Below, in pieces: positions 57,000 through 62,960 of a stretch of DNA of 64,000 nucleotides. The stretch's first letter is position 1. The number at the start of each line of letters is the position of its first letter. The translations under genes were made by a program, and so were the position numbers. The DNA comes from Acidimicrobiales bacterium. Its GTDB lineage: Bacteria > Actinomycetota > Acidimicrobiia > Acidimicrobiales > UBA8190. The stretch lies in contig DATLQU010000035.1 in assembly GCA_035535015.1 (NCBI GenBank), positions 10,614 to 74,613 on the forward strand, given 5' to 3'. A model generated the notes under the pieces. It was given only the letters and a program-made list of their open reading frames with translations. It searched no databases and was not told where the DNA came from.

Positions 57000-58049
57000 A
57001 TGCCCCCGGTCGCCCCCATGCTGGCCAAATTGGCCCGTGAGCTGCCCCGATCCGACGATCTCGTCTACGAGCCCAAGTGGGACGGATTTCGCTGCATCGT
57101 CTTTCGCGACGGGGACGAGCTGGAGCTGGGCAGCCGCAACGAGCGGCCCCTGACCCGCTACTTTCCCGAGCTGATCGAGCCGCTGCGCCAAGCCCTGCCG
57201 GCGAAGGCCGTGGTGGACGGGGAGATCGTCATCGCCGGGACCCGGGGGCTCGACTTCGACGCCCTGCTCCAGCGGATCCATCCGGCCGCCTCCCGGGTGG
57301 ACATGCTGGCCGGCAGCACCCCGGCGTCATTCGTGGCCTTCGATCTGCTGGCCCTCGATGACCGCGACCTGCGACCGGCACCGTTCCGCCAGCGCCGGGC
57401 GCTGCTCGAGGCGGCGCTGCGTGGGGCCCGGCCTCCCGTGCATCTCACCCCGGCCACCACCGACCCCGAGGTGGCCCAGGACTGGTTCTCCCGCTTCGAA
57501 GGGGCGGGACTCGACGGCGTCGTGGCCAAACGGCGCGAGACGACGTACCGCGAAGATGAACGGGTGATGATGAAGGTGAAGCACGAGCGTACGGCCGACT
57601 GCGTGGTGGCCGGGTTCCGCTGGCACAAGTCGGGACCGATCGTGGGATCGCTGTTGCTCGGGCTCTACGACGATGACGGCGTCCTGCACCATGTGGGGGT
57701 CACGGCGTCGTTCACCATGGCCCGTCGACGCGAGCTGGTGGACGAACTGACCGCCTACCGGCGGCCCACGCTCGCCGGGCATCCCTGGGAGGGCTGGGCG
57801 GCGGGGGAGTCGAGCGGAGGCCGGACCCCGGGGGCACCGTCGCGGTGGAACGCCAAGAAGGACCTGAGCTGGGAGCCTCTGGCACCCGAGCTGGTGGTCG
57901 AGGTGGCCTACGACAATCTGCAGGGGGACCGCTTCCGCCACGCCACCACCTTCCGGCGCTGGCGGACCGATCGCCGCCCCGAGAGCTGCACCTACTCCCA
58001 GCTCGAGACCGTGGTGCCCGAGGAGCTCGCCGCCGTCTTCGGCGCCTGA
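57000..58049 (+). CDS. ATP-dependent DNA ligase, LigC-like (adenylation plus OB domains only)
   Basis: PMLAKLARELP...YEPKWDGFRCIVF (motif I KxDG), DGEIV, FVAFDLL, EGVVAK, MMKVK. Start at 57000 or 57018. Confidence 0.85.
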   Translation: MPPVAPMLAKLARELPRSDDLVYEPKWDGFRCIVFRDGDELELGSRNERPLTRYFPELIEPLRQALPAKAVVDGEIVIAGTRGLDFDALLQRIHPAASRVDMLAGSTPASFVAFDLLALDDRDLRPAPFRQRRALLEAALRGARPPVHLTPATTDPEVAQDWFSRFEGAGLDGVVAKRRETTYREDERVMMKVKHERTADCVVAGFRWHKSGPIVGSLLLGLYDDDGVLHHVGVTASFTMARRRELVDELTAYRRPTLAGHPWEGWAAGESSGGRTPGAPSRWNAKKDLSWEPLAPELVVEVAYDNLQGDRFRHATTFRRWRTDRRPESCTYSQLETVVPEELAAVFGA

Positions 58050-58088
58050 GGTGCTCCGTCGCCATCCTCGGCGTCGGTAAGGTCGGAC

Positions 58089-58745
58089 GTGGTGATCGAT
58101 GACCTCGACCTGAGCTCGGCCTCGGTGTTCTTGGACTTCGACGGCACCATCTCGCTCGGCGACACCGGGGTCCATCTCCTGAACCGGCTGGCCGGTGATT
58201 CGTGGCGGGCCATCGAGGAGCTCTACGCCAGCGGAGAGATCGGCAGCCGCGAATGCATCACCCGGCAGTGGGCGCTGTTAGCCACCGAAGACGAGAGTCG
58301 ATTGCGCTCCGTGGCGGCCGAGATCCCCATCGACGACTACTTCGAGCCTCTGGTCGACGCCCTCCTCGATGCCGGCGCCGAGGTCTCCATCGTCTCGGAC
58401 GGATTCGGCTTCGTGGCGAGCGACGTCGGCGAGTCGATGGGCATCGCCGTGAAGACGGCCACCATCGACTGGGCCACCGGGGCCATCGCTTTCCCCGACG
58501 GCGACGAAACCTGTCTCTGCGCCCGCTGCGGGACCTGCAAGCAGGCGCCGTTGCGGGAGGCGGCGGGCCGGGGGCGGACGACCATCTTCGTGGGCGACGG
58601 CCTGAGCGACCAGCTGGCCGCGCCGGGCGCCGATCTTCTCTTCGCCACCGATCAGCTGGCCCGTTGGTGCGATCTCCAGAACATTCCCTATCGACCGTTT
58701 CTCTCTCTGGGGGAGGTGGCTGCCGCCCTCGGGCTGCTCGGCTGA
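58089..58745 (+). CDS. HAD-superfamily phosphatase (subfamily IB, MtnX-like with Cys cluster)
   Basis: Motif I FLDFDGTIS, plus IVSDG, CLCARCGTCK and FVGDGLSD. Confidence 0.75.
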   Translation: MVIDDLDLSSASVFLDFDGTISLGDTGVHLLNRLAGDSWRAIEELYASGEIGSRECITRQWALLATEDESRLRSVAAEIPIDDYFEPLVDALLDAGAEVSIVSDGFGFVASDVGESMGIAVKTATIDWATGAIAFPDGDETCLCARCGTCKQAPLREAAGRGRTTIFVGDGLSDQLAAPGADLLFATDQLARWCDLQNIPYRPFLSLGEVAAALGLLG

Positions 58746-58769
58746 CGGCTCCCTCGGCCGGTGGCTCGC

Positions 58770-59810
58770 TCAGTCAGTGGGCGGCCCGGTCGGCCGGGGC
58801 CGGTCCCGGGCCCGGCCGGGGGCCACCCGGCGGGGCTCCCCCCGCTGCTTGGCGAAGTGCGGGGGCCAGGGCGCGTCCCCGAGTCCCTCGGTTTCGTCAC
58901 GCGCCGCCAATTCCAGAAGACCGGTGAGGTCGTAGCGGTGGTCGTCGAGCCCGGCACCCGGGTCTCCGCGCTCGGCGAAGCGGGCGGGGACGGTGGCCAG
59001 TGTCAGATCGGAGGGCTCGGCGTCGGGGACCTCGTCCCAGTCCAGAGGGCACGAGACCCGGCCTTCGGGATTGGCCCGGACCGAGTACGCCGACGCCACC
59101 GTCCGGTCCCGGGCGTTCTGGTTGTAGTCGATGAAGACGCGTTCGCCGCGTTGTTCCTTCCACCACGCCGAGGTGGCCACCTCGGGCATGCGGCGCTCGA
59201 CCGCCCGGGCCAGAGCCAACGCGGCGCGGCGAACCTCGGTGAAGTCCCAACGCGGTTCGATGGGCACGTTCACATGCATGCCCCGCGACCCCGACGTCTT
59301 CGGAAATCCCTGCAGGCCGTGATCGTCGAGAATGGCCCGGGCCTCGAGGGCCACCCGGCGGACGTCGTCGTAGCTGACGCCGGGCTGGGGATCGAGGTCG
59401 ACCCTGAGCTCATCGGGATGATCGACGTCCTGACGGCGCACGGGCCAGGGATTGAGGTCCAGGCAACCCAGGTTGGCGGCCCAGGCGATATGGGCCACGT
59501 CAACCGGGCAGAGCTCTTCGGCGCTGCGACCGCTCGGAAAGCTGACCGTCACCGTCTCGATCCATTCCGGCCGCTTGGCCGGGACCCGCTTCTGATAGAA
59601 GAACTCTCCTTCGGCGCCGTGGGGGAACCTCTTCAGGACGGTGGGCCGGTGGAAGACACCGCGCAGCGCTCCCGGTCCCACGGCAAGGTAGTAGCGGACG
59701 AGGTCGAGCTTGGTCTCCCCCCGGGTGGAGAAGAAGACCTTGTCGGGGTTCGAGACGGTCACGGTGTGCCCGTCCACCTCGACGGTGACGGGCGGCGCCT
59801 GGGCGGCCAT
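58770..59810 (-). CDS. LigD-polymerase-domain / Prim-Pol family primase-polymerase (stand-alone)
   Basis: VTVSNPDKVFF...TKLDLVRYY...FPHG...FYQKR...DLDP...KTSGSRGMHV...IDYNQNARDRTVASAYSVR. Confidence 0.85.
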   Translation of the reverse strand: MAAQAPPVTVEVDGHTVTVSNPDKVFFSTRGETKLDLVRYYLAVGPGALRGVFHRPTVLKRFPHGAEGEFFYQKRVPAKRPEWIETVTVSFPSGRSAEELCPVDVAHIAWAANLGCLDLNPWPVRRQDVDHPDELRVDLDPQPGVSYDDVRRVALEARAILDDHGLQGFPKTSGSRGMHVNVPIEPRWDFTEVRRAALALARAVERRMPEVATSAWWKEQRGERVFIDYNQNARDRTVASAYSVRANPEGRVSCPLDWDEVPDAEPSDLTLATVPARFAERGDPGAGLDDHRYDLTGLLELAARDETEGLGDAPWPPHFAKQRGEPRRVAPGRARDRPRPTGPPTD

Positions 59811-59816
59811 CCACCG

Positions 59817-60863
59817 ATGCTGGCACGGATCACTACATTCGCGGTGGTGGACCCCGTCGTCGCCCTCCGCCGCGTCGCCTATCTGCTCGAAGCCGAAGGC
59901 GCCGCCACCTACAAGGTCCGTGCCTTCCGCCGGGCGGCCCAGACGCTCTCGGCCGAGGGGCCGGCGCGGATCGAAGAGCTGGCCCGGTCGAAGCGACTGA
60001 CCGCTCTCCCGGGCATCGGCGACAGCACGGCCGCCGTCATCACCGAGGCTCTGGCCGGCGACGAGCCGGCCTATCTCACCGATCTCGTTCAGCGCGCCCA
60101 GGCTCCGGCGTCGGGCTCGATCGGCGCCCTGCGGGCACGGCTACACGGCGACTGCCACAGCCACTCCGACTGGTCCGACGGCGGAAGCCCCATCCGGGAC
60201 ATGGCCGAGGCGGCCCGGGACCTCGGGCACGACTATCTCGCCCTGACCGACCACAGTCCCCGGCTCACCGTGGCCCACGGACTCAATCCCGAACGCCTGT
60301 GCCAGCAGCTGGACGTGGTGGCGGAGTTGAACGAGGAGCTGGCCCCGTTCCGGATCCTCACCGGCATCGAGGTCGACATCTTGGAAGACGGTCGCCTGGA
60401 TCAGGACGAATCGCTCCTGGCCCGCCTCGACGTGGTGGTGGCCAGCGTCCACTCCAAACTCAGCATGGACCCGGGGCCTATGACCAAACGCATGGTGGCG
60501 GCCATCGAGAGCCCTCACACCGACATCCTGGGTCACTGCACCGGTCGCAAGGTCGTGGGCCGGGGACGGCCCCCGTCCCGGTTCGACGCCGAACTCGTCT
60601 TCGCCACCTGCGCCCGGACGGGGACGGCCGTCGAGATCAACTCCCGCCCCGAACGCCGGGATCCTCCCGAGCCCCTGCTCCGCCAGGCCCTGGCCCTCGG
60701 ATGTCTGGTCTCCATCGACACCGACGCCCACGCGCCCGGACAACTGGAGTGGCTCAGCTACGGCTGTGCCCAGGCCGTCGAAGCCGATACACCCGACGAC
60801 CGGATCGTGAACGCCTGGCCGATGGAGCAGCTCCTGGCCTGGACGGCGAGTCATGCCGCCTGA
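59817..60863 (+). CDS. HhH-PHP protein (PolX-like N-terminal helix-hairpin-helix region fused to a PHP phosphoesterase domain; no polymerase core)
   Basis: YKVRAFRRAAQTL...LTALPGIGDSTAAVI, then the PHP motifs GDCHSHSDWSDG, LALTDHS, GIEVDI, SVH, ILGH and SIDTDAH. Confidence 0.8.
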   Translation: MLARITTFAVVDPVVALRRVAYLLEAEGAATYKVRAFRRAAQTLSAEGPARIEELARSKRLTALPGIGDSTAAVITEALAGDEPAYLTDLVQRAQAPASGSIGALRARLHGDCHSHSDWSDGGSPIRDMAEAARDLGHDYLALTDHSPRLTVAHGLNPERLCQQLDVVAELNEELAPFRILTGIEVDILEDGRLDQDESLLARLDVVVASVHSKLSMDPGPMTKRMVAAIESPHTDILGHCTGRKVVGRGRPPSRFDAELVFATCARTGTAVEINSRPERRDPPEPLLRQALALGCLVSIDTDAHAPGQLEWLSYGCAQAVEADTPDDRIVNAWPMEQLLAWTASHAA

Positions 60864-60881: not shown

Positions 60882-61775
60882 TCAGGTGACGGGGAGGCCC
60901 TGCGCCTCGAGACGCCCGTCGACCCATGTGGCCACGGCCGCCACCACGGCACCGGCCGTCTCTGAGAGCGCGGCGGCGTCGACGGGGAGGATCCGCACCT
61001 GCCCACTGGCGGGCCACAACCCGACCACCCGACACGGCGCCGACGACCCGCCCCGGGCCAACGCCGAGACGAGGGCCGGAAACCCGAGCGCCGAACGCCA
61101 GTCCGACGGCGGCAACCCTGATCCCACGACGAGAAGCGCCGGAGGCCCGTCCCCTCTGACCCTGACATCGGCCCGTCCCCGCAGCGTCAGTCGGCGCGTT
61201 CCGGGGCAGTCCCACCAGTCGTCTCCACCGCCGACGATCGGGGCAGGAGCGAACCGATCCCACTCGAGCGCCGTCCACACCTGCGTCGCCCAGGTCACGG
61301 CTTCGGCCTCGACCATGGCCCGCCCTCCGGCAGGCAGGCTCCGGTACCAGCCGGCCCACCACGGCGGACGCGTGGACGACGGATCACCACCATCGGCCAC
61401 GTCCTCGACTCCGGCGGCCAGGACCTCGGCCACGGCCGCGGCCGGTGTGGGCGACCACCCTCGGACGCAACGGGCCATCGCGTTCAGCCCGATAGCCCGG
61501 CGGCATACCAGGGGCGAAGGGGTGAACGGTCCCTCCACAGCGCGGCAACGCTCAGGATGCTCCCGGGCCATGTCGAACCGGTATCCATCGAGACGCAACC
61601 GCTCCCCCGTCGGCAGCTCTTCGACCAGAGCCACGAGGTCACCGGCCAGCCGATCCCGGAGTGCGGCCACATCTTCGGCGCCCACCGCATCGGCATCCGG
61701 GGTCAGCAGTGCCTCGGTCAACGCCCCGGCCCGGGGCAGGGCCAGGGACATCCCGGTCGCCGGGGGGGCGGTCAT
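60882..61775 (-). CDS. Hypothetical protein, apparent catalytically degenerate paralog of the upstream PD-(D/E)XK nuclease
   Basis: LTLRGRADVRVRGDGPPALLVVGSG aligns by eye with VVLSGVVDLAFGG...VCVVEIKSG of the upstream gene, but lacks the E-x-K. Its ATG overlaps the upstream stop (ATGA at 61772-61775). Confidence 0.5.
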   Translation of the reverse strand: MTAPPATGMSLALPRAGALTEALLTPDADAVGAEDVAALRDRLAGDLVALVEELPTGERLRLDGYRFDMAREHPERCRAVEGPFTPSPLVCRRAIGLNAMARCVRGWSPTPAAAVAEVLAAGVEDVADGGDPSSTRPPWWAGWYRSLPAGGRAMVEAEAVTWATQVWTALEWDRFAPAPIVGGGDDWWDCPGTRRLTLRGRADVRVRGDGPPALLVVGSGLPPSDWRSALGFPALVSALARGGSSAPCRVVGLWPASGQVRILPVDAAALSETAGAVVAAVATWVDGRLEAQGLPVT

Positions 61776-62812
61776 GGCCGGTCGTCCCCCTCGGTGCCGC
61801 CGGCACCACCGGTTTCGGTCTCGACCAGCAGGGAAAAGTCGTCATCGGTGGTGGCGTCGCCCGCCTGCCGGGGCACGTCGGTCCCGGCCCGCTCCTGGCC
61901 CGGTTCGCACCCGGGCAGCGCCGTGCACCACGCGCACAGACCGTTGGCCGTCCGGGCCGGTTCGCTCCCTGCGGCCAAGCGGCACAGTCGCCCGGTGCCG
62001 GCCAATACCCGCTGCAGAGCTCCGACCAGGACGTCATCGGTCACGGCCTCGACATCGAGCTCGCCCGTCCGCGTGTAGTAGGTGGCGATCCGGAACGGCG
62101 GCGCGCCGCTGCGCAGGGTTTCGAGCAGGGCATAGAAATGAAGATCGCCGCGGTGCTCGATCCGGCGCCGGCCCGATTTGATCTCGACGACACAGACCGA
62201 CGCCCGTTCTCCCGCCGGCCCGCCGAAAGCCAGGTCGACCACGCCACTCAGGACGACCCTTCCACCGACGAGTGGTACCACCAGCCTTTCCTGTGTCCGG
62301 GGCAACCAGCTCGGGCTGGGCACCGGCCAGCGGGCGACGACACCGCCGGCGTGCTCCGCCACCTCCCGGGCCAGGTCGCCGCGGCTGTCGGGAGTCATGG
62401 CGTCGAGGAAGCCGATGATGTCGCTGTCGCCGTCGACCCGGACGGCGCCGAGGGCGTCGGACCAGGGGTCGTCCAGCCGCCCCGTCGTCACCCACTGCCG
62501 GAACAGCGCATCGACCAGGCTGCCCCGGACCAGCTCCAGGGTCACGTTCCGGGGGGAGCTCCGCCGGGCCACCAGATGGGCCTCGCACATGAGCACGCCG
62601 GTCAGCGCCTCCTTGGTCACCCGCACGGACCCGCCGTCCACGGCCAGGTCGTCGGTCACACCGGCGAGCCCGTCCTCGAGCCAGTCCCGCAGCCCCCCGG
62701 CCAGCCCCGGGTCGACCGCCGGACGGGCCCTCCCCTGCCCCCGCAGCCGCTCGAGCAGAACGGCTCCTTCCGGGGGCCGGACGGCATCGGCGGTTGAGCT
62801 CGATCTGGGCAC
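61772..62812 (-). CDS. PD-(D/E)XK nuclease with Cas4/AddB-type Fe-S cysteine motif
   Basis: D...E-x-K core (GVVDLAF...VVEIKSG) with HFYAL following it. C-terminal C-x2-C-x5-C (CAWCTALPGC) plus an N-terminal Cys (LMCEAH). I trimmed the 722-aa track ORF to the GTG at 62812. The start is uncertain. Confidence 0.6.
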   Translation of the reverse strand: MPRSSSTADAVRPPEGAVLLERLRGQGRARPAVDPGLAGGLRDWLEDGLAGVTDDLAVDGGSVRVTKEALTGVLMCEAHLVARRSSPRNVTLELVRGSLVDALFRQWVTTGRLDDPWSDALGAVRVDGDSDIIGFLDAMTPDSRGDLAREVAEHAGGVVARWPVPSPSWLPRTQERLVVPLVGGRVVLSGVVDLAFGGPAGERASVCVVEIKSGRRRIEHRGDLHFYALLETLRSGAPPFRIATYYTRTGELDVEAVTDDVLVGALQRVLAGTGRLCRLAAGSEPARTANGLCAWCTALPGCEPGQERAGTDVPRQAGDATTDDDFSLLVETETGGAGGTEGDDRP

Positions 62813-62960
62813 GACCCCAGCTTGCCCGACGGCTGTGACGGCCACGGCCGAGACCGGGCCGGAGCCCTCGAGCCACCCCCGACGCCGCCCCCGGCCATTA
62901 GCCTCGATTCCCGATGCAGACGACCCGCAGCGCCGCCGCGGACCCGGGGATGGGGGCCCG

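What the first reader, a model, noticed from the sequence alone, without database searches (positions are those of the whole stretch)
57000..60863. Disaggregated DNA-end-processing island: LigC-like ligase, HAD phosphatase, Prim-Pol and HhH-PHP as separate genes
Bacterial LigD normally fuses ligase, polymerase and 3'-phosphoesterase domains. In mycobacteria a separate LigC/Prim-PolC pair acts in excision repair.

Here a minimal ligase (57000-58049) and a stand-alone Prim-Pol (58770-59810, opposite strand) are separated by a HAD phosphatase. They are followed by a PolX-like HhH-PHP protein that lacks the polymerase core. No LigD-type phosphoesterase domain and no Ku gene are visible in the window.

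HAD domains provide the 3'-phosphatase of eukaryotic PNKP. PHP domains of bacterial PolX have 3'-end-cleaning activities. The HAD and PHP genes are therefore plausible substitutes for the missing end-healing module. The HAD member has an unusual CLCARCGTCK cysteine cluster. The placement of the HAD gene may simply be fortuitous.
Basis: partly seen in the sequence, partly recalled or inferred. Interest (0 to 1): 0.6.

Follow-up and report, generated by a model that had tools for sequence, protein, structure and literature searches.

The report
LigC gap-repair cluster, inserted phosphatase
A known bacterial DNA gap-repair pair (ligase C and its polymerase Prim-PolC) sits here beside a conserved, so far unstudied DNA-end-cleaning partner, while the phosphatase gene wedged between them is a recent and probably incidental insertion.

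Summary
All four genes are real, at the stated coordinates. The ligase is a LigC orthologue. The Prim-Pol is an orthologue of mycobacterial Prim-PolC, not of LigD PolDom. The fourth protein is a PolX 8-kDa/HhH domain joined directly to a PHP domain with all nine metal ligands and no polymerase core.

The "replacement for a missing LigD" framing fails. The same genome (an Acidimicrobiales MAG) carries Ku, a PE-ligase fusion and a LigD-type PolDom on other contigs.

The PHP link is supported:
- 59 of 70 Acidimicrobiales loci keep PHP beside LigC and Prim-PolC, in two layouts.
- A second, deeply diverged PHP clade in another actinobacterial family is also LigC-linked, in two further layouts.
- Mycobacterial orthologues are unlinked.

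The HAD link is not supported:
- It lies in the island only in four close relatives, as a single clade. Its sister copies sit among transposases.
- The nearest HAD-less relatives have a 57-65 bp spacer at the site.
- Most homologues lie upstream of rnhB.
- It is a capped MtnX-like HAD-IB, and its Cys cluster is invariant across the family.

This scan has noted the PrimPol-PHP-LigC module before in about ten other genomes. I found no paper describing it.

The parts
57000..58049 (+). LigC-type minimal ATP-dependent DNA ligase (349 aa; adenylation and OB domains only)
   Evidence: NF006078/PRK08224 scores 535 bits against a cut-off of 296. Pfam finds PF01068 and PF04679. It lies next to Prim-PolC, as in mycobacteria (PMC5663958).
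58078..58083 (+). TAAGGT, a -10-like hexamer 5 nt before the HAD GTG start. The surrounding GGTAAGGTCGG is conserved in L007 and L008. Inferred to be the HAD gene's own (leaderless-type) promoter.
   Evidence: Read directly from the sequences. The function is inferred and not tested. The simple sigma-70 scan found nothing.
58089..58745 (+). MtnX-like HAD-IB phosphatase (218 aa) with DxDxT, S, K and GDxxxD motifs and an invariant C-x-C-x2-C-x2-C-K cluster. It is a lineage-specific insertion between the convergent ligase and Prim-Pol genes.
   Evidence: Family assignment. Cys conservation. Synteny only in L007, L008 and L009. Absent from L088 and L090, which have a 57-65 bp spacer. Single clade, with sister copies flanked by IS elements.
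58770..59810 (-). Prim-PolC orthologue (346 aa), a short-gap-filling primase-polymerase
   Evidence: PF21686 scores 305 bits. The best solved relatives are M. smegmatis Prim-PolC 6SA0/5OP0: 383 bits over residues 8-333, against 130 bits for Mtb LigD PolDom 2IRU.
59817..59826 (.). Conserved motif ATGnTnnCAC directly upstream of the Prim-PolC start codon. Read on the minus strand it is GTGnnAnCAT, an extended -10-like element (TGn + cAnnAT) ending 6 nt before the ATG.
   Evidence: The motif is invariant in 14 type-A loci although the spacer length varies from about 33 to about 120 nt. The promoter reading is an inference. A regulator binding site is not excluded.
59844..60863 (+). HhH(8-kDa)-PHP protein: a PolX N-terminal 8-kDa/HhH domain joined directly to a PolX-type PHP phosphoesterase, with no fingers, palm or thumb. 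The ORF is open from ATG 59817; the likely start is GTG 59844 or 59847.
   Evidence: NF005928 scores 528 bits; Pfam finds PF14716 and PF02811. Alignment to D. radiodurans and T. thermophilus PolX. AF2 model pLDDT 91.4; its PHP domain overlays Tth PolX 3AUO at 1.7 A over 239 columns. The metal ligands H114, H116, D121, H146, E185, H212, H240, D303 and H305 are all present (numbering after PMC6616362).

Best explanation
The core of the island is a three-enzyme short-gap (base-excision-type) DNA repair module, not a LigD substitute.

**Proposed steps**
1. The HhH-PHP protein docks on a nick or 1-3 nt gap through its PolX-like 8-kDa/HhH domain. This step is inferred.
2. Its trinuclear PHP site removes 3'-blocking groups (3'-phosphate, 3'-unsaturated aldehyde or phosphoglycolate, and possibly mispaired 3' nucleotides). 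Fpg/Nei-type lyases or oxidation leave such groups. This step is inferred from the PolX PHP activities established in B. subtilis and T. thermophilus.
3. Prim-PolC needs a 3'-OH and a 5'-phosphate. It fills the gap, probably with ribonucleotides. Shown for the mycobacterial orthologue; inferred here.
4. LigC seals the nick. Again shown for the mycobacterial orthologue and inferred here.

In effect the module is a PolX whose polymerase core is supplied in trans by a Prim-Pol.

**The HAD gene**
The HAD-IB phosphatase gene between ligase and Prim-Pol entered the convergent spacer once, in the recent ancestor of four related genomes. It seems to have its own promoter-like element. It most likely acts on a small phosphorylated metabolite unrelated to DNA ends.

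Canonical Ku-dependent end joining is encoded separately elsewhere in the genome.
For: **Identity of the parts**
- LigC equivalog at 535 bits.
- The Prim-Pol scores 383 bits to Prim-PolC structures against 130 bits to LigD PolDom. The genome's other Prim-Pol shows the reverse: 192 bits to LigD PolDom and 99 to Prim-PolC.
- Ku, PE-Lig and PolDom lie on other contigs.

**PHP competence**
- All nine PolX PHP metal ligands are present, as are the DNA-path residues R244, R249/R251, N274 and R279/R280 (residue roles from PMC6616362).
- The structure model is confident and overlays the Tth PolX PHP domain at 1.7 A.
- The N-terminus matches Pfam HHH_8 above its cut-off and aligns to the PolX 8-kDa helix-HhH region.

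**PHP linkage**
- Of 70 Acidimicrobiales PHP loci with enough flank, 59 have LigC and Prim-PolC adjacent.
- Over all 80 loci, 21 have layout Lig> <PrimPol PHP> and 41 have the co-directional layout PrimPol>PHP>Lig, with median hit-to-hit gaps of about 50 nt.
- A second PHP clade, 34-39% identical, is LigC-linked in another actinobacterial family in two more layouts.

**Pathway need**
- Prim-PolC requires a 3'-OH. In the mycobacterial reconstitution the 3' end left by Fpg had to be cleaned by EndoIV, ExoIII or XthA (PMC5663958, PMC7442782).
- This genome has three Fpg/Nei genes, one Xth and no detectable EndoIV, at 91% completeness.

**Weak experimental hint**
- In Plocinski et al., Supplementary Data 3, 'MSMEG6445 PHP domain protein' was captured only on the 1-nt 5'-phosphorylated gap bait.

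**HAD as an insertion**
- Only 3 of 80 HAD loci carry the island.
- The nearest HAD-less relatives, L088 and L090, have a 57-65 bp spacer at the site.
- The island HADs form one clade (100/93). Its sister clade is flanked by IS21, IS110 and ISAzo13 transposases.
- In L149 an unrelated 112-aa ORF occupies the same spacer.
- In the phylum sample, 37 other genomes have a HAD homologue. None lies near LigC where both coordinates were listed.
- The HAD aligns over its full length with capped MtnX and gives no PNK3P hit.
Against: **Against a functional PHP link**
- No biochemistry exists for any stand-alone HhH-PHP protein.
- In full-length PolX the PHP nucleolytic activities depend partly on DNA binding by the Pol-beta-like core (PMC6616362). 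That core is absent here.
- The PolXBs K545 equivalent is not conserved (V321/E322).
- The F440 equivalent, proposed to sense AP sites, is an invariant Leu in all 39 short PHP proteins.
- The linkage is not universal. There are 0 linked cases among 82 Mycobacteriaceae, Nocardia and Streptomyces-like loci, none in four same-order genomes, and none in Acidobacteriota or Verrucomicrobiota relatives.
- EndoIV absence does not track linkage: type A 0 of 18, type B 7 of 15, unlinked 1 of 9.
- The MSMEG6445 hit rests on 2 peptides at background-level intensity. Its identity with this family was not verified.

**Against the HAD being a passenger**
- It has been kept intact in four genomes that have diverged to 65-82% identity.
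- It is the only copy in this genome.
- Elsewhere its family sits upstream of rnhB and the imuA'-imuB genes. A nucleic-acid-related role is therefore not excluded.
Confidence: 0.62

Rival explanations
1. First reader's model. This is a disaggregated, Ku-less LigD-like end-processing island. The HAD (PNKP-like 3'-phosphatase) and the PHP protein together replace the missing LigD phosphoesterase domain.
For: All four genes are adjacent and intact. LigC and HAD are co-directional, 39 nt apart. HAD phosphatases do serve as DNA 3'-phosphatases in PNKP and T4 PNK (established knowledge).
Against: - The genome encodes Ku, a PE-Lig fusion and a LigD-type PolDom elsewhere.
- The Prim-Pol is of the Prim-PolC type, not the PolDom type.
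- HAD synteny is limited to four close relatives and absent across the phylum sample.
- The HAD is a C1-capped MtnX-like IB member with no PNK3P (PF08645) match. By established knowledge of the HAD superfamily, macromolecular phosphatases are usually capless.
Confidence: 0.07
2. The PHP adjacency is inherited gene order without functional coupling. The HhH-PHP protein would be a general, free-standing AP-endonuclease or 3'-phosphoesterase (an EndoIV analogue) serving all repair pathways, as its unlinked mycobacterial and streptomycete orthologues would.
For: - The gene is unlinked in 82 of 82 Mycobacteriaceae, Nocardia and Streptomyces-like loci, in four same-order genomes, and in other phyla.
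- The family is very large, with at least 7986 proteins at E<=1e-60, and is mostly not next to LigC outside two lineages.
Against: - Adjacency survives rearrangement into four different layouts.
- It occurs in two PHP clades separated by very long branches.
- In layout B the PHP gene lies between Prim-PolC and LigC with very short gaps and an overlap with the Prim-Pol stop. This is typical of co-translated partners.
Confidence: 0.2
3. The HAD-IB phosphatase is a genuine accessory of ribonucleotide-patch repair. It would act on a small molecule or a nucleotide-derived product. It has been recruited twice: beside rnhB and imuA'-imuB in most Acidimicrobiia, and beside LigC/Prim-PolC in this clade.
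For: - 56 of 77 non-island homologues lie 28-2400 bp upstream of rnhB on the same strand, and 34 also lie near imuA'-like and imuB genes.
- Prim-PolC fills gaps with ribonucleotides (PMC5663958).
- There is an actinobacterial precedent for an RNase H fused to a phosphatase: RnhC, cited in PMC5663958.
- The HAD is retained intact in all four island genomes, and it is the only copy in this genome.
Against: - The rnhB linkage is loose, with 0-2 unrelated genes between, and is largely confined to one clade of the HAD tree, so it may be plain vertical synteny.
- The island clade's sister copies are IS-flanked.
- There is no second independent LigC linkage.
- This genome's own rnhB locus lacks the HAD.
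Confidence: 0.1

Closest known systems
Mycobacterial LigC / Prim-PolC excision-repair complex (Plocinski et al. 2017, PMC5663958; Brissett et al. 2020, PMC7442782)
   Same: - The ligase is orthologous: it meets the LigC equivalog at 535 bits.
- The Prim-Pol is orthologous: 383 bits over the full length to 6SA0/5OP0.
- The two genes are adjacent.
- Ku and LigD-type genes coexist elsewhere in the genome.
   Different: - Here, and in most Acidimicrobiales, a HhH-PHP gene is part of the cluster.
- In mycobacteria the orthologous PHP gene exists but is unlinked (0 of 82 loci), and it is not mentioned in the main text of either paper.
- The operon partner noted in mycobacteria was fpg.
- This clade also carries an inserted HAD gene.
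PHP domain of bacterial/archaeal family X polymerases (B. subtilis PolX, T. thermophilus PolX 3AU2/3AUO, D. radiodurans PolX 2W9M; PMC6616362)
   Same: - It has the 8-kDa/HhH N-terminal domain and a PHP domain with all nine metal ligands and most DNA-path residues.
- The PHP domain is 37% identical to Tth PolX and overlays it at 1.7 A.
- The PolX PHP domain has 3'-phosphatase, 3'-phosphodiesterase, 3'-5' exonuclease and AP-endonuclease activities.
   Different: - The whole fingers-palm-thumb polymerase core is missing.
- The F440 equivalent is an invariant Leu, and the K545 equivalent is lost in the PRK07945-type clade.
- Activity of the core-less protein has not been tested.
LigD (PE-Lig-Pol) with Ku: bacterial NHEJ
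   Same: It has the same enzyme logic: end cleaning, then Prim-Pol, then an ATP-dependent ligase.
   Different: - The end-cleaning fold is different (PHP, not LigD PE).
- The Prim-Pol is of the PolC type.
- There is no Ku in the cluster.
- The genome has a separate true PE-Lig, PolDom and Ku set.
B. subtilis MtnX (2FEA) and the MtnX-like HAD-IB subfamily
   Same: - The HAD aligns over its full length, residues 13-210, including the cap and the Cys-rich segment before the motif-III Lys.
- It carries the HAD motifs I-IV.
   Different: - It scores far below the MtnX equivalog cut-offs (77 against 292 bits and 67 against 303 bits).
- No methionine-salvage neighbours were seen in any of 80 loci.
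- The substrate is unknown.
PNKP / T4 PNK HAD-type DNA 3'-phosphatase
   Same: It belongs to the HAD superfamily and has a DxDxT nucleophile motif.
   Different: - It has no PF08645 (PNK3P) match.
- It carries a C1 cap typical of small-molecule phosphatases.
- It has no kinase or FHA partner domain.

Membership tests
LigC (NF006078 / PRK08224 ATP-dependent DNA ligase) | Meets the curated equivalog profile over its full length. Minimal adenylation + OB architecture without PE or Pol domains. | tested here: met
   535 bits against a cut-off of 296, residues 1-347. Only PF01068 and PF04679 are found.
LigC (NF006078 / PRK08224 ATP-dependent DNA ligase) | Nick sealing of 3'-ribonucleotide-containing nicks; physical complex with Prim-PolC | not testable with these tools
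   Needs biochemistry.
Prim-PolC (as opposed to LigD PolDom / Prim-PolD) | Closer in sequence to Prim-PolC than to LigD PolDom, including the C-terminal extension (Loop 3 region) | tested here: met
   383 bits to 6SA0/5OP0 over residues 8-333, against 130 bits to 2IRU. The genome's second Prim-Pol shows the opposite pattern.
Prim-PolC (as opposed to LigD PolDom / Prim-PolD) | Genomic pairing with LigC | tested here: met
   The two genes are convergent and 720 bp apart here, with the HAD between them. They are 42-105 bp apart in 19 of the 21 type-A loci.
PolX-type PHP phosphoesterase | Nine His/Asp/Glu metal ligands (PolXBs H339, H341, D346-equivalent, H371, E410, H437, H465, D526, H528) | tested here: met
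   H114, H116, D121, H146, E185, H212, H240, D303 and H305 are present by alignment to Dr and Tth PolX. Eight of them are invariant in 39 homologues. H114 is Gln in the second clade, as in Tth PolX.
PolX-type PHP phosphoesterase | Electropositive DNA path (R469, R474, N498, R503, K545) and aromatic F440 | tested here: inconclusive
   The R469, R474, N498 and R503 equivalents are present. The K545 equivalent is absent (V321/E322). The F440 equivalent is an invariant Leu215 (roles from PMC6616362).
Family X DNA polymerase (full PolX) | Pol-beta-like fingers-palm-thumb nucleotidyltransferase core between the 8-kDa and PHP domains | tested here: not met
   The protein is 348 aa. HHH_8 covers residues 16-80 and the PHP domain starts at about residue 103. 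It aligns to PolX residues 14-126 and 325-557 only. It is therefore not a polymerase.
LigD 3'-phosphoesterase (PE) domain | PF13298 LigD_N domain | tested here: not met
   There is no hit in any of the four island proteins. The only genomic copy is on contig 16, fused to a ligase.
MtnX (2-hydroxy-3-keto-5-methylthiopentenyl-1-phosphate phosphatase) | Meets the equivalog profiles TIGR03333 / NF007103; methionine-salvage neighbourhood | tested here: not met
   67 and 77 bits against cut-offs of 303 and 292. No salvage genes were seen around 80 homologues. The HAD passes only the broad HAD-SF-IB model, TIGR01488.
PNKP-type HAD DNA 3'-phosphatase | PNK3P (PF08645) domain, capless HAD fold | tested here: not met
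   There is no PF08645 hit at E<=0.01. The HAD aligns over its full length with the capped enzymes MtnX and phosphoserine phosphatase.

The most novel reading that the evidence does not exclude
The stand-alone HhH-PHP protein is the missing, dedicated 3'-end-cleaning subunit of the actinobacterial LigC/Prim-PolC repair machine: a 'split PolX' whose polymerase is a Prim-Pol. In addition, the Cys4-cluster HAD-IB phosphatase is a second, previously unrecognised accessory of ribonucleotide-patch repair. It would have been recruited independently beside rnhB and imuA'B in most Acidimicrobiia and beside LigC/Prim-PolC in this clade.
Probability: 0.08. Interest if true: 0.65.

Novelty: new variant of a known kind. 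Interest (0 to 1): 0.4.

Why it matters
The LigC/Prim-PolC pathway is the only assigned function for the many stand-alone ligase and Prim-Pol pairs of Actinobacteria. In the published reconstitution, the 3'-end-cleaning step was borrowed from general BER nucleases.

A conserved, rearrangement-resistant linkage to a polymerase-less PolX (8-kDa + PHP) suggests that a dedicated end-cleaning component exists. The orthologue is present but unlinked in Mycobacterium and Mycolicibacterium. The idea can therefore be tested directly in M. smegmatis, with the tools already used for LigC.

The finding also shows how a PolX can lose its polymerase core and keep working beside a different polymerase.

The HAD part, which made this particular island look special, is most likely incidental. 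It is a caution against reading function from a single-clade adjacency.

Tried and rejected
1. **HAD as a conserved island member: rejected.** Only 3 of 80 HAD loci carry the island. No HAD-LigC adjacency was seen in the phylum sample (against 34).
2. **Methionine-salvage context for the HAD: not found.** The usual neighbours are AmtB upstream and rnhB, a DinB/MDMPI-like gene, a 122-aa ORF and imuA'-imuB downstream.
3. **A second HAD paralogue in this genome: none.** The genome's own rnhB locus also lacks a HAD.
4. **Phyletic complementarity between PHP linkage and EndoIV absence: no clean pattern.** Nfo is found in 0 of 18 type-A, 7 of 15 type-B and 1 of 9 unlinked genomes.
5. **The two downstream genes (60882-62830, PD-(D/E)XK-like pair) as island members: rejected.** They have no Pfam hits and are syntenic only in the closest relatives.
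6. **Single-sequence scan with the second-clade PHP protein: found nothing**. An alignment query worked.
7. **Sigma-70 promoter and terminator scan of the island: nothing above shuffles**.
8. **RecA-NDp / LexA-type motif in the PrimPol-PHP spacer: no match by eye.** The conserved motif there reads better as an extended -10 element.
9. **Literature searches.** 'PHP domain' with LigC, and 'PHP domain' with Prim-Pol, returned only irrelevant papers. MSMEG_6445 returned none.
10. **Attempt to confirm that MSMEG6445 is the PRK07945 orthologue: inconclusive.** The protein search showed the family name 'PHP domain-containing protein' across Mycolicibacterium, but M. smegmatis was not among the 120 rows listed.

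Full report
**What is there.** The window is high-GC DNA (about 70% around the island) from an Acidimicrobiales metagenome-assembled genome. The assembly is 3.76 Mb in 66 contigs and 91% complete. Four intact genes lie at the stated coordinates:
- a 349-aa ligase, 57000-58049 (+);
- a 218-aa HAD, 58089-58745 (+);
- a 346-aa Prim-Pol, 58770-59810 (-);
- a roughly 340-aa HhH-PHP protein, ending at 60863 (+).

The flanks are a PAS-GGDEF-EAL gene upstream and two genes without Pfam matches downstream. The downstream pair is syntenic only in the closest relatives.

**Ligase and Prim-Pol.** The ligase meets the NCBIfam LigC equivalog NF006078 at 535 bits against a cut-off of 296. It has only the adenylation and OB domains.

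The Prim-Pol's best solved relatives are the M. smegmatis Prim-PolC structures 6SA0/6SA1/5OP0. It scores 383 bits over residues 8-333, against 130 bits for the M. tuberculosis LigD polymerase domain 2IRU. The identity of those PDB entries was checked in PMC7442782.

**The rest of the genome.** Contig 60 has a Ku gene of 402 aa. Contig 16 has a 508-aa PE-ligase fusion, overlapped by a 321-aa Prim-Pol whose best match is LigD PolDom (192 bits) rather than Prim-PolC (99 bits).

The genome therefore has a canonical split LigD plus Ku. The island is the additional LigC/Prim-PolC set, as in mycobacteria.

**The HhH-PHP protein.**
- Pfam finds HHH_8 (the PolX 8-kDa-type domain) at residues 16-80 and PHP from residue 112. 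NF005928/PRK07945 scores 528 bits.
- Against the PDB, residues 103-344 align to the PHP domains of D. radiodurans and T. thermophilus PolX (E about 1e-49). Residues 14-80 align to their N-terminal 8-kDa region. Nothing corresponds to fingers, palm or thumb.
- An AlphaFold2 model built on 39 homologues is confident (pLDDT 91.4, pTM 0.89). Its PHP domain overlays Tth PolX 3AUO at 1.7 A over 239 columns.

I mapped residues using the roles established by mutagenesis of B. subtilis PolX (PMC6616362):
- All nine metal ligands are present: H114, H116, D121, H146, E185, H212, H240, D303 and H305.
- The equivalents of the DNA-path residues R469, R474, N498 and R503 are present.
- The K545 equivalent is lost.
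- The F440 equivalent, proposed to sense AP sites, is a Leu that is invariant in all 39 short PHP proteins.

PolX PHP domains carry 3'-phosphatase, 3'-phosphodiesterase, 3'-5' exonuclease and AP-endonuclease activities (PMC6616362).

The gene probably starts at GTG 59844 or 59847. The upstream ATG at 59817 belongs to an invariant ATGnTnnCAC motif that abuts the Prim-PolC start in 14 loci and is out of frame with the PHP gene in L088. On the minus strand this motif reads as an extended -10-like element for a leaderless Prim-PolC transcript. That reading is an inference.

**Is the PHP gene linked to LigC and Prim-PolC beyond chance?**
- Of the 80 best PHP loci, each from a different species-level genome and all Acidimicrobiales-like, 70 have enough flank to judge. 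Of these, 59 carry both LigC and a Prim-PolC-type gene next to PHP.
- Two layouts occur. Layout A, Lig> <PrimPol PHP>, is the window's layout (21 loci). Layout B, PrimPol>PHP>Lig, is co-directional and tightly packed (41 loci). The layout-B Prim-Pol is also of the Prim-PolC type.
- In a 301-genome sample of the phylum, a second family ('f11') has a short HhH-PHP protein only 34-39% identical to this one. In 9 genomes it lies directly beside LigC, in layouts <PHP Lig> <PrimPol and Lig>PHP>. Further Actinomycetota MAGs show the same.
- On a PHP tree the two clades are separated by very long branches, and linkage occurs in both.

The linkage is not universal:
- It is absent from 82 of 82 Mycobacteriaceae, Nocardia and Streptomyces-like loci. 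The orthologue there is about 57% identical to this protein.
- It is absent from four same-order genomes.
- It is absent from Acidobacteriota, Verrucomicrobiota and Gemmatimonadota relatives.

**Why an end-cleaning partner makes sense.** Prim-PolC acts on short gaps with a 3'-OH and a 5'-phosphate (PMC7442782). In the mycobacterial reconstitution, the 3' end left by Fpg had to be processed by EndoIV, ExoIII or XthA before Prim-PolC and LigC could finish (PMC5663958).

This genome has three Fpg/Nei-family genes, one Xth and no detectable EndoIV. EndoIV absence does not correlate with linkage across 42 related genomes, so this point is only permissive.

Supplementary Data 3 of PMC5663958 lists 'MSMEG6445 PHP domain protein' only among the proteins captured on a 1-nt 5'-phosphorylated gap bait. 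It does not appear on the free-end or blocked-end baits. The hit rests on 2 peptides at low intensity. I could not verify that MSMEG6445 is the orthologue.

Neither paper's main text mentions PHP or PolX. Full-text searches for 'PHP domain' with LigC, and with Prim-Pol, found nothing relevant.

**The HAD gene.**
- It has the HAD motifs DFDGT, SDG, K and GDGLSD. It passes only the broad HAD-IB model and is far below the MtnX cut-offs.
- It aligns over its full length with capped B. subtilis MtnX (2FEA), including the Cys-rich segment.
- C142, C144, C147 and C150 are invariant in all 81 homologues, so the cluster is a family trait.
- It has no PNK3P match.

Synteny:
- Of 80 homologous loci, only the three nearest (65-82% identity) carry LigC, Prim-PolC and PHP.
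- The next-closest genomes by PHP, LigC and Prim-PolC identity (L088, L090) have a 57-65 bp spacer where the HAD sits.
- In L149 an unrelated 112-aa ORF occupies the same spacer.
- The four island HADs form one clade (100/93). Its sister clade (99/97) consists of copies flanked by IS21, IS110 and ISAzo13 transposases.
- 56 of the 77 non-island homologues lie upstream of rnhB, in a loose block of AmtB-HAD-rnhB-DinB-like-p122-imuA'-imuB.
- This genome has a single HAD copy, and its rnhB locus lacks one.
- In the phylum sample, 37 other genomes have a homologue. None is near LigC where both coordinates were listed.
- A TAAGGT hexamer 5 nt before the HAD start, conserved in L007 and L008, suggests the gene has its own promoter. 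This is inferred.

**Verdict.**
- The LigC/Prim-PolC reading is right.
- The PHP protein is a well-supported candidate third component. This is a new variant of a known system. This scan's first readers have already noted it in about ten other genomes, mostly unchecked.
- The HAD is most likely a recent passenger.
- The 'missing LigD' premise is false for this genome.

Noticed in passing
window 60882-62830 (-): Two overlapping genes (297 aa and about 350 aa) without Pfam hits. The upstream one has a PD-(D/E)XK-like core and a CAWCTALPGC Cys motif (Cas4/AddB-like). They are syntenic with the island only in the closest relatives (L008, L009, L088-L091).
   Followed up: partly
L013-L086 (e.g. L047:3509-11468): Many Acidimicrobiia share a loose conserved block: AmtB - HAD-IB - (0-2 genes) - RNase HII - DinB/MDMPI-like - 122-aa ORF - imuA'-like - imuB. 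The HAD lies upstream of rnhB in 56 of 77 loci.
   Followed up: partly
window 59817-59826; L088-L115 equivalents: An invariant ATGnTnnCAC motif abuts the Prim-PolC start codon in 14 type-A loci, although the spacer length varies. It reads as an extended -10 element on the minus strand, or it may be a regulator binding site.
   Followed up: partly
L009:4954-6001 (OY970155.1): LigC is split between two reading frames near residue 66-67 in this long-read MAG. This is either a homopolymer sequencing error or a pseudogene. The same genome has a second, IS21-flanked HAD copy (L010).
   Followed up: no
L149:2840-3178 (-): An unrelated 112-aa ORF with a signal-peptide-like N-terminus is inserted in the same convergent LigC/Prim-PolC spacer that holds the HAD in the window. 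The spacer seems to tolerate insertions.
   Followed up: no
L168:9656-10429 (-): In the second actinobacterial family (f11), a calcineurin-like metallophosphoesterase gene lies directly beside Prim-PolC in the <PHP Lig> <PrimPol cluster.
   Followed up: no
P0004 residue 215 (window about 60459-60461): The position equivalent to PolXBs Phe440 (the proposed AP-site sensor) is Leu in all 39 stand-alone HhH-PHP proteins aligned, across both deep clades. This is a possible signature separating them from full-length PolX.
   Followed up: partly
L022, L028, L041, L075, L081 record titles: Several Acidimicrobiia-like contigs carry implausible organism labels, such as Bifidobacterium breve, Bordetella parapertussis and Burkholderiales. 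These are probably mislabelled MAG records.
   Followed up: no
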